DNA of 64,000 nt, taken from assembly GCF_003019035.1 (NCBI RefSeq), contig NZ_CP027447.1; one strand, written 5' to 3'. Source of the stretch: Escherichia coli (GTDB lineage: Bacteria > Pseudomonadota > Gammaproteobacteria > Enterobacterales > Enterobacteriaceae). Shown piece by piece: positions 43,603-47,654 of this stretch. The notes below the pieces were generated by a model. That model was not told the origin of the DNA and made no database searches. It saw nothing but the letters and a program-made list of their open reading frames with translations. Positions within the stretch are counted from its first letter, which is position 1. Every line of letters begins with the position of its first letter. The translations under genes and the position numbers were made by a program.

Positions 43603-44484
43603 TTAACGCGGTACATTCGCGGGATCGCAATAGTCCAGAAAGCGCCGTAGCGCGTTGGAAAGGTGTTTTTGCCGATGATGTATACGCCACAACGTACGCA
43701 TCAGGCGCGGCAGAGGGACCGCAACTTCACTTAATGTGCCTGCCTGCAATTGATCTTCAATCACCCGTCGCGACAGGCAACTAATTCCCAACCCATGACG
43801 CACCGCATGTTTGATTGCCTCGGAGTTACCTAATTCCATCGCCATCTCAAACTTCGGTAAATGTGACAGCAACAGATAATCGACAATCTCCCGCGTGCCG
43901 GAACCGCGTTCACGCAGGATCCACGGCGCAGCGGCCAGCTGCTCTAAGGTGACCGGACCACGGGCCAACGGCGAAGTCGGGGCGGCGAAAACCACCAGCT
44001 CGTCTTCCAGCCACGGTTCAGAGATGATTTCAGTGCTGTGGCACGGTCCTTCAATAAAGCCAATATCAACGCGGAAATCCAGCACCGCTTGCATCACGTC
44101 CTGGCTGTTCCCAACGCTAAGTTCAATCGGCAACTGCGGATAATCATGGCGATAACGGGCGATAACTGCAGGCAGAATGTAGTTACCGATAGTACTACTG
44201 GCATAGATACGAATCGCGCCGTTGTCTTCGCGAAACAGTTGTTCGATTTCAACCGCCTGTTCAAGCAGTGCCAACGCTCGCGGATAGAGCAGCCGCCCGT
44301 GTTCATTAACTACCAGTCTTTTCCCCACGCGATCAAACAGTTGAACGCCAAGCTGCCCTTCCAGGTCGGTCAAGGCTGCGCTCACTGCTGATTGCGACAA
44401 CGCCAGCATCACCGACGCCTGGGTGGTTGATCCACTTTTCAATACTTCTGCAAAAACTTCCAACTGCCGGAGGGTGATGTGCAT
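43603..44484 (-). CDS. yeiE: LysR-family transcriptional regulator YeiE, 293 aa
   Basis: N-terminal LysR HTH ([24 protein letters not shown]); divergent from yeiH. Confidence 0.88.
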
Positions 44485-44582
44485 AGTCGCTTACCACTTA
44501 TAAAGATTAATTATAAATATATAATCAATTTTATTTTTAAACCAGTTAGTCGTAACCTTATGCCCGGTTAAAGGAGAGGGTT

Positions 44583-45632
44583 ATGACGAATATCACCTTA
44601 CAGAAACAACATCGTACACTGTGGCATTTTATTCCGGGGTTAGCCCTGAGTGCAGTTATCACCGGGGTCGCCCTGTGGGGTGGTTCCATTCCCGCGGTTG
44701 CGGGTGCCGGGTTTAGTGCCCTCACCCTCGCAATCTTGTTGGGGATGGTTTTAGGCAACACCATCTATCCGCACATCTGGAAAAGCTGTGACGGTGGTGT
44801 GCTGTTTGCCAAGCAATATTTATTACGTCTGGGTATCATTCTTTATGGCTTCCGTCTGACGTTCTCGCAAATTGCCGATGTCGGTATCAGTGGGATCATC
44901 ATTGACGTGCTGACGCTGTCCAGTACCTTCCTGCTGGCTTGCTTCCTGGGGCAGAAAGTGTTTGGTCTGGATAAGCACACCAGCTGGTTGATCGGTGCCG
45001 GTAGCAGTATCTGTGGTGCTGCCGCGGTACTGGCGACTGAGCCGGTAGTGAAAGCGGAAGCCAGTAAAGTAACCGTGGCTGTTGCAACCGTTGTTATCTT
45101 CGGGACCGTCGCGATTTTCCTCTACCCGGCGATATATCCGCTGATGTCTCAATGGTTTAGTCCGGAAACTTTCGGTATCTACATTGGTTCTACTGTGCAC
45201 GAAGTGGCGCAGGTGGTGGCGGCAGGTCATGCCATCAGCCCGGATGCAGAAAACGCAGCAGTTATTTCCAAAATGCTGCGCGTGATGATGCTGGCTCCGT
45301 TCCTCATCCTGCTGGCGGCGCGTGTTAAACAGCTGTCTGGGGCGAACAGCGGCGAGAAAAGCAAAATCACTATTCCGTGGTTTGCCATCTTGTTCATCGT
45401 AGTTGCCATCTTTAACTCGTTCCACCTGTTACCGCAGAGCGTAGTGAACATGCTGGTAACGCTGGATACCTTCCTGCTGGCAATGGCGATGGCGGCGCTG
45501 GGTCTGACTACTCACGTCAGCGCGCTGAAAAAAGCCGGGGCGAAACCTCTGCTGATGGCTCTGGTACTGTTTGCCTGGCTGATTGTTGGTGGTGGTGCGA
45601 TTAACTATGTGATTCAAAGCGTCATCGCATAA
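44583..45632 (+). CDS. yeiH: UPF0324 family inner membrane protein YeiH, 349 aa
   Basis: Polytopic membrane ORF divergent from yeiE. Confidence 0.88.
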
Positions 45633-45648
45633 ACCACTACATCTTGCT

Positions 45649-45696
45649 CCTGTTAACCCGCTATCATTACCGTTTTCCTCCAGCGGGTTTAACAGG
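45649..45696 (+). promoter_or_regulatory. Long stem-loop between yeiH and nfo whose 3' arm contains the nfo Shine-Dalgarno sequence
   Basis: CCTGTTAACCCGCT-19nt-AGCGGGTTTAACAGG (14 bp with a 1-nt bulge); AGGAG of the right arm lies 9 nt upstream of the nfo ATG. Confidence 0.4.
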
Positions 45697-45705
45697 AGTC
45701 CTCGC

Positions 45706-46563
45706 ATGAAATACATTGGAGCGCACGTTAGTGCTGCTGGCGGTCTGGCAAATGCCGCAATTCGCGCCGCCGAAATCGACGCAACCGCGTTTGCCTTGTT
45801 CACCAAAAACCAACGTCAGTGGCGTGCCGCACCGCTCACGACGCAAACCATCGATGAATTCAAAGCCGCCTGTGAAAAATATCACTACACATCGGCGCAA
45901 ATTCTTCCCCACGACAGTTATCTGATTAACCTCGGACATCCGGTCACTGAAGCTCTGGAAAAATCGCGCGATGCCTTTATAGATGAAATGCAGCGTTGCG
46001 AACAGCTGGGGCTTTCTTTGCTCAACTTCCACCCTGGCAGCCATCTGATGCAGATTTCAGAAGAGGATTGCCTTGCGCGTATTGCCGAATCCATCAACAT
46101 TGCGCTGGATAAAACTCATGGTGTGACAGCGGTGATTGAAAACACCGCCGGTCAGGGCAGTAACTTAGGGTTTAAATTCGAACATCTCGCGGCGATTATC
46201 GACGGCGTGGAAGATAAATCCCGCGTCGGCGTCTGCATTGATACCTGCCATGCTTTCGCTGCCGGGTATGATTTGCGTACTTCTGCCGAATGCGAGAAAA
46301 CGTTCGCGGATTTTGCCCGTATTGTCGGCTTTAAGTATCTGCGCGGGATGCACCTTAACGATGCGAAAAGCACCTTTGGCAGCCGCGTTGACCGCCATCA
46401 TAGCCTCGGTGAAGGCAATATCGGTCATGATGCGTTCCGCTGGATCATGCAGGACGACCGTTTCGACGGCATTCCGCTGATCCTTGAAACCATCAACCCG
46501 GATATCTGGGCAGAAGAGATCGCCTGGCTGAAAGCGCAACAAACTGAAAAAGCGGTAGCCTGA
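45706..46563 (+). CDS. nfo: Endonuclease IV (Nfo), 285 aa
   Basis: AP endonuclease family 2 TIM barrel; N-terminus [14 protein letters not shown]. Confidence 0.93.
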
Positions 46564-46565
46564 AG

Positions 46566-47654
46566 ATGAACAACCGGGAGAAGGAGATCCTTGCAATATT
46601 AAGGCGTAACCCGCTGATTCAGCAGAACGAAATTGCGGATATGCTGCAAATCAGCCGTTCGCGTGTTGCAGCGCATATTATGGATTTAATGCGCAAAGGT
46701 CGGATTAAAGGCAAAGGTTACATTCTCACCGAGCAGGAATACTGCGTAGTGGTGGGGACAATCAATATGGATATTCGCGGGATGGCGGATATCCGTTACC
46801 CGCAAGCGGCTTCTCATCCCGGTACCATTCATTGCTCGGCAGGCGGCGTTGGACGCAATATCGCCCACAATCTGGCGCTGTTAGGCCGCGACGTCCATTT
46901 GCTTTCAGTGATTGGCGATGACTTTTATGGCGAAATGCTCCTGGAAGAAACGCGCCGCGCCGGCGTGAATGTCTCCGGCTGCGTTCGTTTACATGGTCAA
47001 AGCACATCGACGTATCTGGCAATTGCCAATCGAGACGATCAAACCGTGCTGGCGATTAACGATACCCATCTGCTGGATCAGTTGACACCGCAACTACTGA
47101 ACGGGTCGCGCGATTTACTTCGTCATGCGGGCGTGGTACTGGCTGATTGCAACCTGACAGCCGAGGCGCTGGAGTGGGTCTTTACCCTCGCTGATGAAAT
47201 CCCGGTGTTTGTCGATACCGTTTCAGAATTCAAAGCGGGCAAAATCAAACACTGGCTGGCGCATATTCACACTCTGAAACCCACTTTGCCGGAGCTGGAA
47301 ATTTTATGGGGCCAGCCGATAACCCGCGATGCTGATCGTAATGCCGCAGTGAATGCGTTGCATCAGCAAGGCGTTCAGCAACTGTTTGTTTATTTGCCCG
47401 ATGAGTCTGTTTATTGCAGCCAAAAGGATGGCGAACAATTTTTGCTGACTGCGCCAGCGCATACGACGGTAGACAGTTTTGGTGCTGACGATGGTTTTAT
47501 GGCGGGCCTGGTGTATAGCTTTCTGGAAGGAAGCAGTTTCCGTGATAGTGCCCGTTTTGCGATGGCCTGCGCGGCAATTTCACGCGCCAGCGGCAGCTTA
47601 AACAACCCTACCCTGTCTGCCGATAACGCGCTTTCATTAGTGCCGATGGTGTAA
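46566..47654 (+). CDS. yeiI: PfkB-family sugar kinase with N-terminal HTH, YeiI, 362 aa
   Basis: N-terminal winged-helix then ribokinase-like fold; parallels psuK. Confidence 0.88.
   Translation: MNNREKEILAILRRNPLIQQNEIADMLQISRSRVAAHIMDLMRKGRIKGKGYILTEQEYCVVVGTINMDIRGMADIRYPQAASHPGTIHCSAGGVGRNIAHNLALLGRDVHLLSVIGDDFYGEMLLEETRRAGVNVSGCVRLHGQSTSTYLAIANRDDQTVLAINDTHLLDQLTPQLLNGSRDLLRHAGVVLADCNLTAEALEWVFTLADEIPVFVDTVSEFKAGKIKHWLAHIHTLKPTLPELEILWGQPITRDADRNAAVNALHQQGVQQLFVYLPDESVYCSQKDGEQFLLTAPAHTTVDSFGADDGFMAGLVYSFLEGSSFRDSARFAMACAAISRASGSLNNPTLSADNALSLVPMV

What the first reader, a model, noticed from the sequence alone, without database searches (positions are those of the whole stretch)
45649..45705. 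Stem-loop sequestering the nfo ribosome-binding site
A 14-bp stem (with a 1-nt bulge) lies between yeiH and nfo, and its 3' arm includes the AGGAG Shine-Dalgarno sequence of nfo. This could act as a translational control or as a yeiH 3' stabiliser. nfo is known to be SoxS-inducible, so an additional post-transcriptional layer would be of interest.
Basis: seen in the sequence. Interest (0 to 1): 0.3.

Follow-up and report, generated by a model that had tools for sequence, protein, structure and literature searches.

The report
nfo promoter nested inside a hairpin
The stem-loop between yeiH and nfo in E. coli is real and conserved, but nfo's own promoter fires from inside its loop, so the hairpin can hide the nfo ribosome-binding site only on transcripts reading through from yeiH, much as IS10 is shielded from outside promoters.

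Summary
Window 45646-45699 folds into a 17-pair stem (one bulged U, 19-nt loop, -25.9 kcal/mol, z = -4.1), and its 3' arm contains the nfo AGGAG.

The nfo promoter lies inside the hairpin:
- a 12/14 SoxS/MarA/Rob box at 45624-45643;
- 18 bp downstream, a -10 TATCAT at 45662-45667, with TATnnT invariant in 31 Enterobacteriaceae species;
- a published nfo 5' end 29 nt upstream of the ATG (window 45677), which is in the loop.

nfo's own mRNA therefore lacks the left arm, and its predicted SD is about 0.6 unpaired. Read-through RNA from yeiH carries both arms, and its SD is 0.001-0.004 unpaired.

The inverted repeat is kept across Enterobacteriaceae despite loops of roughly 17-50 nt. Native arm pairs fit better than swapped ones (0/50,000 permutations). 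Edwardsiella has a canonical yeiH terminator sharing CCTGTTAACC, which suggests the hairpin derives from a terminator.

Best reading (confidence about 0.5): a terminator-derived hairpin that keeps nfo translation independent of yeiH transcription, like IS10 fold-back protection. None of this is tested experimentally. Modest interest; a new member of a known kind.

The parts
44583..45632 (+). yeiH coding sequence. Its transcripts are the only known source of RNA carrying the left arm.
   Evidence: ORF list; annotated yeiH in E. coli genomes. A yeiH TSS 17 nt upstream of the gene is listed in Kim 2012.
45624..45643 (+). SoxS/MarA/Rob box (marbox/soxbox) ATCGCATAAACCACTACATC. It overlaps the yeiH stop codon and lies 18 bp upstream of the -10.
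   Evidence: 12 of 14 specified positions match AYNGCACNNWNNRYYAAAYN; the background frequency of scores >=12 is 1e-4 per position. It is the best match at the same 18-bp gap in 25 of 31 species. The consensus is taken from PMC2064960. The same site is predicted as SoxS in Mendoza-Vargas 2009 file 6.
45646..45662 (+). Left (5') arm of the hairpin, GCTCCTGTTAACCCGCT. It occupies the spacer of the nfo promoter, about -31 to -15 relative to the mapped 5' end.
   Evidence: Conserved in Enterobacteriaceae.
45662..45667 (+). -10 hexamer TATCAT of the nfo promoter, at the 5' edge of the loop.
   Evidence: TATnnT is invariant in 31 species (invariant T25 A26 T27 T30). Assigned as the sigma70 -10 'acccGCTATCATtacc' with PATSER score 4.83.
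45663..45681 (+). 19-nt loop, containing most of the -10 and the nfo transcription start.
   Evidence: Loop length is variable across the 31 species; the shortest is about 17 nt and the longest about 50 nt by my reading of the printed sequences.
45673..45677 (+). nfo transcription start. The mapped 5' end is at 45677 (-29). A true start 1-4 nt further upstream in the T run is possible.
   Evidence: Mendoza-Vargas 2009 Table S1: nfo, distance -29, 454 reads, frequency 3. The authors did not verify 5'-triphosphates.
45682..45699 (+). Right (3') arm, AGCGGGTTTAACAGGAGT, with bulged U at 45688. It is present in every nfo transcript.
45694..45698 (+). nfo Shine-Dalgarno AGGAG, 7 nt before the ATG.
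   Evidence: Sequence. Predicted unpaired probability is 0.64 in nfo's own transcript and 0.001-0.004 in read-through RNA.
45706..46563 (+). nfo (endonuclease IV) coding sequence.

Best explanation
The inverted repeat brackets the nfo promoter. The SoxS/MarA/Rob box and the left arm lie upstream of the start. The -10 and the transcription start lie in the loop. The right arm, which contains the SD, is the first part of the nfo 5' UTR.

Two RNA isoforms follow from this layout:
- Transcripts from nfo's own stress-activated promoter begin 5-9 nt before the right arm, lack the left arm and have an accessible SD.
- Transcripts that read through from yeiH (no other terminator lies between the genes) carry both arms and fold into a roughly -26 kcal/mol hairpin that buries the SD.

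The hairpin therefore keeps nfo translation independent of yeiH transcription. It may also act as a weak terminator or 3' protective structure for yeiH mRNA. It probably descends from the yeiH intrinsic terminator.

Shown: the structure, its conservation, the promoter geometry, the published 5' end, and the predicted accessibility difference. Inferred: that read-through RNA exists in vivo and that its translation is blocked.
For: Structure: (-25.9 kcal/mol, z = -4.06).

Promoter inside the hairpin:
- 5' end at -29 with the -10 GCTATCAT;
- TATnnT invariant in 31 species;
- a 12/14 marbox at a fixed 18-bp gap in 25 of 31 species;
- an RNA polymerase holoenzyme binding site listed for the yeiH>nfo spacer;
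- nfo described as driven by SoxS through a marbox.

Isoform difference:
- SD unpaired 0.64 versus 0.001-0.004, and RBS opening cost about 9 versus about 16-17 kcal/mol in E. coli;
- medians of 0.53 versus 0.007 and a difference of 10 kcal/mol in 31 Enterobacteriaceae, against 0.63 versus 0.39 and 1.9 kcal/mol in 18 other Enterobacterales.

Selection on pairing:
- 80.5% of cells paired, against 36-50% when the partner is slid;
- native left/right arms bind better than swapped ones: -23.5 versus -21.3 kcal/mol with 0/20,000 permutations, 0/50,000 with trimmed arms, and 1/50,000 after dropping the Citrobacter clade and near-duplicates;
- loop length varies widely (roughly 17-50 nt by my reading), which argues against a dimeric protein site.

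No canonical terminator is found in the E. coli spacer.

Terminator ancestry: Edwardsiella has GCACCCTGTTAACC-TAT-GGTTAGCAGGGTGT followed by a T-run just after yeiH. Of 25 occurrences of CCTGTTAACC in 457 kb of loci, 23 lie in this spacer.
Against: - No direct evidence was found here that yeiH transcripts reach nfo in vivo. No 3' end for yeiH or nfo was found in the held part of one Term-seq supplement.
- The mapped 5' end rests on 3 reads, and 5'-triphosphates were not verified, so it could be a processing site in the loop.
- Column-wise covariation is no better than shuffles: 2 pairs with double changes against 2.5 expected.
- There is no strand asymmetry. G-U versus A-C counts are 39 versus 22, or 23 versus 22 without the -10 T pair. 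Plus- and minus-strand folds do not differ (p = 0.36). An RNA role on the + strand is therefore not proven.
- In the Citrobacter/Kluyvera clade the SD-containing outer helix is absent.
Confidence: 0.5

Rival explanations
1. The hairpin is only the yeiH terminator or 3'-end stabiliser. Its overlap with the nfo SD and promoter is a by-product of squeezing both functions into about 70 nt, and has no consequence for nfo translation.
For: Other families have canonical yeiH terminators upstream of the nfo promoter, and the Edwardsiella one shares CCTGTTAACC. The Citrobacter version has a 14-bp stem, a 9-nt loop and a T-rich tail. About half of the species have a T-rich stretch after the stem.
Against: E. 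coli has a 19-nt loop and no U-tract (UCCUCGCA). No terminator is called by the scan or by my own scan, yet the stem is intact and the region is nearly invariant in 5425 genomes. The outer helix CUCCUG/CAGGAG is kept in most genera even though the left half sits in a promoter spacer with no other known constraint.
Confidence: 0.22
2. One reading: the hairpin forms in the nfo mRNA itself and adds translational control on top of SoxS induction.
For: The SD lies in the 3' arm and the hairpin is very stable. A second, unmapped promoter inside yeiH cannot be excluded. The mapped 5' end was not shown to be triphosphorylated.
Against: The 5' end is at -29, inside the loop. The invariant -10 and the marbox at class II spacing place the start between the arms in all 31 species. 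The promoter scan finds nothing upstream of the left arm.
Confidence: 0.06
3. A DNA-level element: the inverted repeat flanking the -10 and start site binds a protein or extrudes as a cruciform, and so modulates the nfo promoter.
For: The repeat brackets the core promoter. There is no G-U versus A-C bias and no strand bias, so DNA pairing fits the data as well as RNA pairing.
Against: The spacing between the arms varies widely (roughly 17-50 nt), and the bulge comes and goes. That is incompatible with a fixed dimeric site. The arms co-vary rather than keeping one recognition sequence. No known operator motif was recognised by inspection only.
Confidence: 0.07
4. A relic: two independently constrained motifs (promoter spacer and RBS) that happen to be complementary through descent from an old terminator, with pairing no longer selected.
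For: Most stem columns are simply conserved, and column-wise covariation is no better than shuffles.
Against: The arm-swap tests show that native arms fit each other better than arms from other species. Individual compensated changes are visible in the printed sequences: Shimwellia UGUCAAA/UUUGACA, Enterobacter sp. ENT03 CCCGG/CCGGG, and Kosakonia GACCC/GGGUC. A promoter spacer has no known reason to be conserved.
Confidence: 0.12

Closest known systems
IS10/Tn10 (and IS50) protection from external promoters, also called fold-back inhibition (Davis, Simons & Kleckner 1985, cited in PMC13181058)
   Same: The gene's translation signals sit in the 3' arm of a hairpin whose 5' arm lies upstream of the gene's own transcription start. 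Only transcripts entering from outside can fold and hide the ribosome-binding site.
   Different: Here it is a chromosomal housekeeping/stress gene pair, not a transposase. The upstream arm lies in the promoter spacer of an activator-dependent promoter. The structure seems to derive from the upstream gene's terminator. The effect on translation is predicted, not measured.
Intrinsic (Rho-independent) terminator of the upstream gene
   Same: A G+C-rich stem immediately after the yeiH stop codon. It appears homologous to a canonical terminator in Edwardsiella, and the Citrobacter version is terminator-like.
   Different: The E. coli version has a 19-nt loop that holds a promoter's -10 and start site, and it has no U-tract. 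It is not called a terminator by the scans.
Class II SoxS/MarA/Rob-activated promoters (from my own knowledge of Martin et al. 1999: fumC, micF, sodA, inaA, nfo)
   Same: A forward marbox overlaps the -35 region 18-19 bp from the -10, with no recognisable -35 hexamer. nfo is a known regulon member.
   Different: Nothing differs for the promoter itself. The new point is that its spacer and initial transcribed region are mutually complementary.
Lambda sib retroregulation of int (from my own knowledge)
   Same: An RNA structure is complete only in transcripts of one origin (read-through), so the fate of the message depends on which promoter made it.
   Different: sib acts at the 3' end through RNase III and decay. 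Here the structure is at the 5' side of the gene and is predicted to act on ribosome binding.

Membership tests
Intrinsic terminator | G+C-rich stem directly after the upstream gene | tested here: met
   17-pair stem of -25.9 kcal/mol, starting 13 nt after the yeiH stop codon.
Intrinsic terminator | Short loop (about 3-8 nt) | tested here: not met
   The loop is 19 nt in E. coli. It is met in Edwardsiella (3 nt) and nearly met in Citrobacter (9 nt).
Intrinsic terminator | U-tract immediately after the stem | tested here: not met
   The tail is UCCUCGCA. No terminator is called in 45300-45900 on the + strand or by my scan. A U-rich tail is present in several other genera.
Class II SoxS/MarA/Rob promoter | Match to the 20-bp box AYNGCACNNWNNRYYAAAYN | tested here: met
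   12 of 14 positions at 45624-45643; background frequency 1e-4 per position. The same site is predicted.
Class II SoxS/MarA/Rob promoter | Box in forward orientation, 18-19 bp upstream of the -10, overlapping the -35 | tested here: met
   The gap is 18 bp in E. coli and in 25 of 31 species. The spacing rule itself is recalled from the literature (Martin et al. 1999), not read here.
Class II SoxS/MarA/Rob promoter | Transcription start about 7 nt after the -10 | tested here: inconclusive
   The published 5' end at -29 (45677) is 10 nt after the hexamer and follows a T run. There were 3 reads, and triphosphates were not verified.
Class II SoxS/MarA/Rob promoter | Activator binding and activation | not testable with these tools
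   Only a literature statement that nfo is SoxS/marbox-driven.
IS10-type read-through protection (fold-back inhibition) | Ribosome-binding site in the 3' arm of a stable hairpin | tested here: met
   AGGAG at 45694-45698 lies within the right arm 45682-45699.
IS10-type read-through protection (fold-back inhibition) | The gene's own transcription start lies between the arms | tested here: met
   The 5' end at 45677 lies in the loop 45663-45681, and a conserved -10 sits at the edge of the loop. Caveat as above.
IS10-type read-through protection (fold-back inhibition) | Read-through transcripts are translated much less than the gene's own transcripts | not testable with these tools
   Only predicted: SD unpaired 0.64 versus 0.001-0.004, with a difference of about 7-8 kcal/mol in opening cost.
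IS10-type read-through protection (fold-back inhibition) | Part of a mobile element | tested here: not met
   Single-copy chromosomal locus in 5425 genomes. So it works like this system but is not a member of it.
Described cis-regulatory RNA (riboswitch, thermometer, leader) in Rfam | Match to an Rfam covariance model | tested here: not met
   No match at E <= 1 in 44400-46800 on either strand.
Repetitive extragenic element (REP/BIME-like) | Many copies per genome | tested here: not met
   One place per genome for the 141-nt query. This used megablast only, so diverged copies would be missed.

The most novel reading that the evidence does not exclude
A promoter deliberately housed in the loop of a conserved hairpin works as a promoter-choice switch. 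The hairpin was captured from the upstream gene's terminator. It lets nfo be translated only from its stress-activated start and silences every transcript arriving from yeiH. This would be a general way for tightly packed, co-oriented genes to stay translationally independent without a terminator.
Probability: 0.35. Interest if true: 0.45.

Novelty: new member of a known kind. Interest (0 to 1): 0.3.

Why it matters
nfo is a textbook SoxRS/Mar/Rob regulon gene, and its induction is usually discussed purely as promoter activation. If the hairpin works as inferred, the 73-nt spacer holds three things at once: an activator-dependent promoter, a ribosome-binding site, and a device that makes nfo translation depend on which promoter made the RNA. 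That would explain how two co-oriented genes with no terminator between them can be regulated independently. It would also give a chromosomal counterpart to the IS10/IS50 read-through protection. In practice it warns that reporter fusions or expression constructs carrying DNA upstream of about -30 will behave differently from the native nfo mRNA. The claim is computational, and the concept is already known, so the interest is modest.

Tried and rejected
- **Rfam.** An E-value search over 2.4 kb found nothing.
- **Consensus promoter/terminator scan.** It gave only an unrelated TTAACA-17-TACATT match overlapping the ATG and no + strand terminator. That is expected for an activator-dependent promoter with no -35.
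- **Literature.** I found no paper describing this hairpin or a classical nfo primer-extension start (and a sequence-string search).
  - Older key papers could not be read: two PMC ids I guessed for Saporito & Cunningham 1988 and Jair 1995 are not held, and Seo 2015 is not in the library. Fawcett & Wolf 1994, Li & Demple 1994 and Martin 1999 were not found by any search. A mention of the dyad symmetry in those papers cannot be excluded.
  - TSS or 3'-end supplements with nothing for nfo: PLoS Genet 2025 MarA, Salmonella MarA/SoxS, Kim 2012 (yeiH start only), Adams 2021 Term-seq, Cappable-seq. Conway 2014 has no supplements held. Several of these files were cut when stored, so absence is weak evidence.
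- **Column-wise covariation on a MAFFT alignment.** It was no better than shuffles. I therefore used an alignment-free arm-swap test instead.
- **Strand assignment.** G-U versus A-C counts and plus- versus minus-strand folding were both uninformative.
- **Within-species polymorphism.** The region is almost invariant in E. coli, so it offers no natural stem variants to examine.
- **Operator motifs.** A LexA-like CTGT...ACAG reading was considered and rejected on spacing, by inspection only.

Full report
**What is there**

The window is E. coli chromosome. A 501-nt query around the site matches 5425 of 5426 complete genomes once each, under genes annotated yeiH and nfo. yeiH is 44583-45632 and nfo is 45706-46563, both on the + strand, with a 73-nt spacer. 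In MG1655 the nfo ATG is at 2,250,840.

Folding 45633-45720 as RNA gives one dominant hairpin:
- left arm 45646-45662;
- 19-nt loop 45663-45681;
- right arm 45682-45699;
- 17 pairs (16 Watson-Crick plus a terminal G-U) with one bulged U;
- -25.9 kcal/mol, against -14.4 +/- 2.8 for 200 dinucleotide shuffles (z = -4.06, none as stable).

The repeat finder recovers both ungapped halves of the stem. AGGAG at 45694-45698 lies in the 3' arm, 7 nt before the ATG.

The sequence alone is not remarkable, because the window holds 19 inverted repeats of at least 13 nt within 40 nt of each other. No Rfam family matches.

**Where nfo transcription starts**

Table S1 of Mendoza-Vargas et al. 2009 (PMC2760140) lists an nfo 5' end 29 nt upstream of the start codon. 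It comes from 454 reads (frequency 3), and the sigma70 -10 is assigned to 'acccGCTATCATtacc'. A companion table predicts a SoxS site, TCATCGCATAAACCACTACATC. Position -29 is window 45677, inside the loop and 5 nt before the right arm.

The authors state that they did not verify 5'-triphosphates. The position follows a run of four T, so the true start may be 1-4 nt further upstream. That is still within the loop.

Independent comparative evidence agrees with this placement.
- I fetched 80 Enterobacterales nfo loci. yeiH lies upstream in most of them.
- In 31 Enterobacteriaceae species the hexamer at this position is TATnnT without exception.
- The 20-bp box ATCGCATAAACCACTACATC (45624-45643) matches the soxbox/marbox consensus (quoted in PMC2064960) at 12 of 14 specified positions. 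Scores of 12 or more occur at 1e-4 per background position.
- The best box lies exactly 18 bp upstream of the -10 in 25 of the 31 species.

From my own knowledge of Martin et al. 1999, this is the geometry of a class II SoxS/MarA/Rob promoter. Two further points fit. The literature describes nfo as SoxS/marbox-driven. An RNA polymerase holoenzyme binding site is listed for the yeiH>nfo spacer.

The consensus promoter scan finds nothing here. That is expected for an activator-dependent promoter without a -35.

The consequence is that the left arm is promoter spacer DNA, at about -31 to -15. It is not part of the mRNA made from nfo's own promoter.

**What the hairpin can and cannot do**

I modelled an nfo transcript starting at 45673-45677 and extending 36 nt into the gene. 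Its SD is unpaired with probability 0.64, and opening the ribosome-binding region (-16 to +13) costs about 9 kcal/mol. In RNA that starts in yeiH the SD is unpaired with probability 0.001-0.004, and the opening cost is 16-17 kcal/mol.

The same contrast holds across species:

| Group | SD unpaired, own transcript (median) | SD unpaired, read-through (median) | Extra opening cost (median) |
|---|---|---|---|
| 31 Enterobacteriaceae | 0.53 | 0.007 | 10 kcal/mol |
| 18 other Enterobacterales without the repeat | 0.63 | 0.39 | 1.9 kcal/mol |

It can act only on transcripts that enter from upstream.

**Is the pairing itself selected?**

On a MAFFT alignment of the 31 spacers, 80.5% of cells form pairs under the E. 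coli structure. The figure falls to 36-50% when the 3' partner is slid by 1-3 columns. Column-wise covariation is no better than shuffles, however: 2 pairs with changes on both sides against 2.5 expected. Most columns are simply conserved.

An alignment-free test is more informative. I paired each species' left arm with every species' right arm.
- Native combinations are more stable than non-native ones: -23.5 versus -21.3 kcal/mol, with 0 of 20,000 permutations as good.
- The result holds with arms trimmed to the stem: -21.4 versus -19.1, 0 of 50,000, with 25 of 29 species showing a favourable interaction term.
- It also holds after removing the Citrobacter clade and near-duplicate relatives: -22.6 versus -20.8, 1 of 50,000.

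Individual compensations are visible in the sequences printed:
- Shimwellia has UGUCAAA/UUUGACA, which also removes the bulge.
- Enterobacter sp. ENT03 has CCCGG/CCGGG.
- Kosakonia has GACCC/GGGUC.

Loop length varies widely among the 31 species, from about 17 to about 50 nt by my reading of the printed sequences. That argues against a dimeric protein-binding site.

I could not assign the strand or the molecule. G-U versus A-C counts are 39 versus 22, but 23 versus 22 once the pair involving the -10 T is removed. Plus- and minus-strand folds are equally stable (p = 0.36).

Within E. coli, the 141 nt around the site are at least 99% identical in 5424 of 5425 genomes, and 38 of 40 evenly sampled rows are 100% identical. 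So there are no natural variants to examine.

**Origin**

In Yersinia, Serratia, Providencia and Edwardsiella, a canonical intrinsic terminator follows yeiH. The nfo promoter lies downstream of it, with the terminator ending 60-350 nt before the ATG.

The Edwardsiella terminator is GCACCCTGTTAACC-TAT-GGTTAGCAGGGTGT followed by a T-run. It shares the 10-mer CCTGTTAACC with the E. coli left arm. Of 25 occurrences of that 10-mer in 457 kb of fetched loci (about one expected by chance), 23 lie in the yeiH-nfo spacer.

In Citrobacter and Kluyvera the outer helix and the AGGAG are missing. The stem instead runs through the -10 (AACCCGCTATACTC/GAGTATGGCGGGTT), with a 9-nt loop and a T-rich tail ending 6 nt from the ATG.

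I infer that the Enterobacteriaceae hairpin descends from the yeiH terminator and that the nfo -10 and start site now sit in its loop. In E. coli the loop is 19 nt and there is no U-tract. Efficient intrinsic termination is therefore unlikely there, and read-through from yeiH into nfo is expected. I found no direct measurement of this.

**Best explanation and rivals**

My best reading, at confidence about 0.5, is a terminator-derived hairpin that forms only in read-through RNA. It keeps nfo from being translated from yeiH transcripts and may also protect or define the yeiH 3' end. nfo's own promoter, firing from the loop, gives an mRNA with a free SD.

| Rival | Confidence | Main point |
|---|---|---|
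| yeiH terminator/stabiliser only, SD overlap incidental | 0.22 | Fits the ancestry, but E. coli lacks terminator features while keeping the stem |
| Relic with no current function | 0.12 | Opposed by the arm-swap tests |
| DNA-level element acting on the promoter | 0.07 | Opposed by the variable spacing between arms |

**Comparison with known systems**

The closest functional parallel is the protection of IS10/Tn10 (and IS50) transposase from external promoters. There the ribosome-binding site is sequestered only in transcripts that start outside the element (Davis, Simons & Kleckner 1985, as cited in PMC13181058).

The two features I could test are met: the RBS lies in the 3' arm, and the gene's own start lies between the arms. 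The functional feature, reduced translation of read-through RNA, is not testable here. The locus is not a mobile element. So it works like that system rather than belonging to it.

As an intrinsic terminator it fails on two of three defining features in E. coli. As a class II SoxS/MarA/Rob promoter it passes the sequence and spacing tests.

I found no paper that describes this hairpin. The oldest nfo papers were not readable, so an earlier mention of the dyad symmetry cannot be excluded.

**Verdict**

The arrangement is neat, compact and plausible, but it is untested and conceptually familiar. Interest is 0.3. Novelty: a new member of a known kind.

Noticed in passing
L061 about 2409-2447 and L074 about 2393-2431 (Edwardsiella ictaluri / E. 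hoshinae): A canonical yeiH intrinsic terminator (14-bp stem, 3-nt loop; a T-rich tail in L061, weaker in L074) shares the 10-mer CCTGTTAACC with the E. coli left arm. It lies upstream of the nfo promoter, not around it.
   Followed up: partly
L005, L007, L012, L014 (Citrobacter spp., Kluyvera), the 70 nt before the nfo ATG: nfo has no recognisable AGGAG. The conserved hairpin is shifted inward so that the -10 (TATACT) forms part of the stem, and it ends 6 nt from the ATG with a T-rich tail. How nfo is translated there is unclear.
   Followed up: partly
L036, L040, L050 (Yersinia, Pectobacterium), yeiH-nfo spacer of 255-402 nt: The spacer is expanded by a repeat that looks like an ERIC/IRU element (recognised from memory, not tested). 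It sits between the yeiH terminator and the nfo promoter.
   Followed up: no
L056 (Pantoea stewartii), 1349-nt spacer between yeiH and nfo: An insertion carries an open reading frame (MKRTSPTPTPHDALFRQFL...) that resembles Rpn/transposase_31-family proteins from memory. It was not searched.
   Followed up: no
window 45600-45740: The 141 nt spanning the yeiH end, the spacer and the nfo start are at least 99% identical in 5424 of 5425 complete E. coli genomes (38 of 40 sampled rows 100%). The flanking 501 nt vary more, with 176 genomes at 95-99% identity.
   Followed up: partly
window 46563-46566: The yeiI ORF starts 2 nt after the nfo stop codon, which suggests nfo-yeiI co-transcription. Anything that blocks ribosomes or RNA polymerase at the nfo start could therefore also affect yeiI.
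   Followed up: no
Upstream of nfo in Serratia, Yersinia, Pectobacterium, Photorhabdus and Edwardsiella loci (for example L037, L041, L051, L061): A different conserved promoter core, [AG]TG[CT]CATAAT[GA], lies about 25 nt before the SD. nfo therefore keeps its own close-in promoter across the whole order, even where the hairpin is absent.
   Followed up: partly
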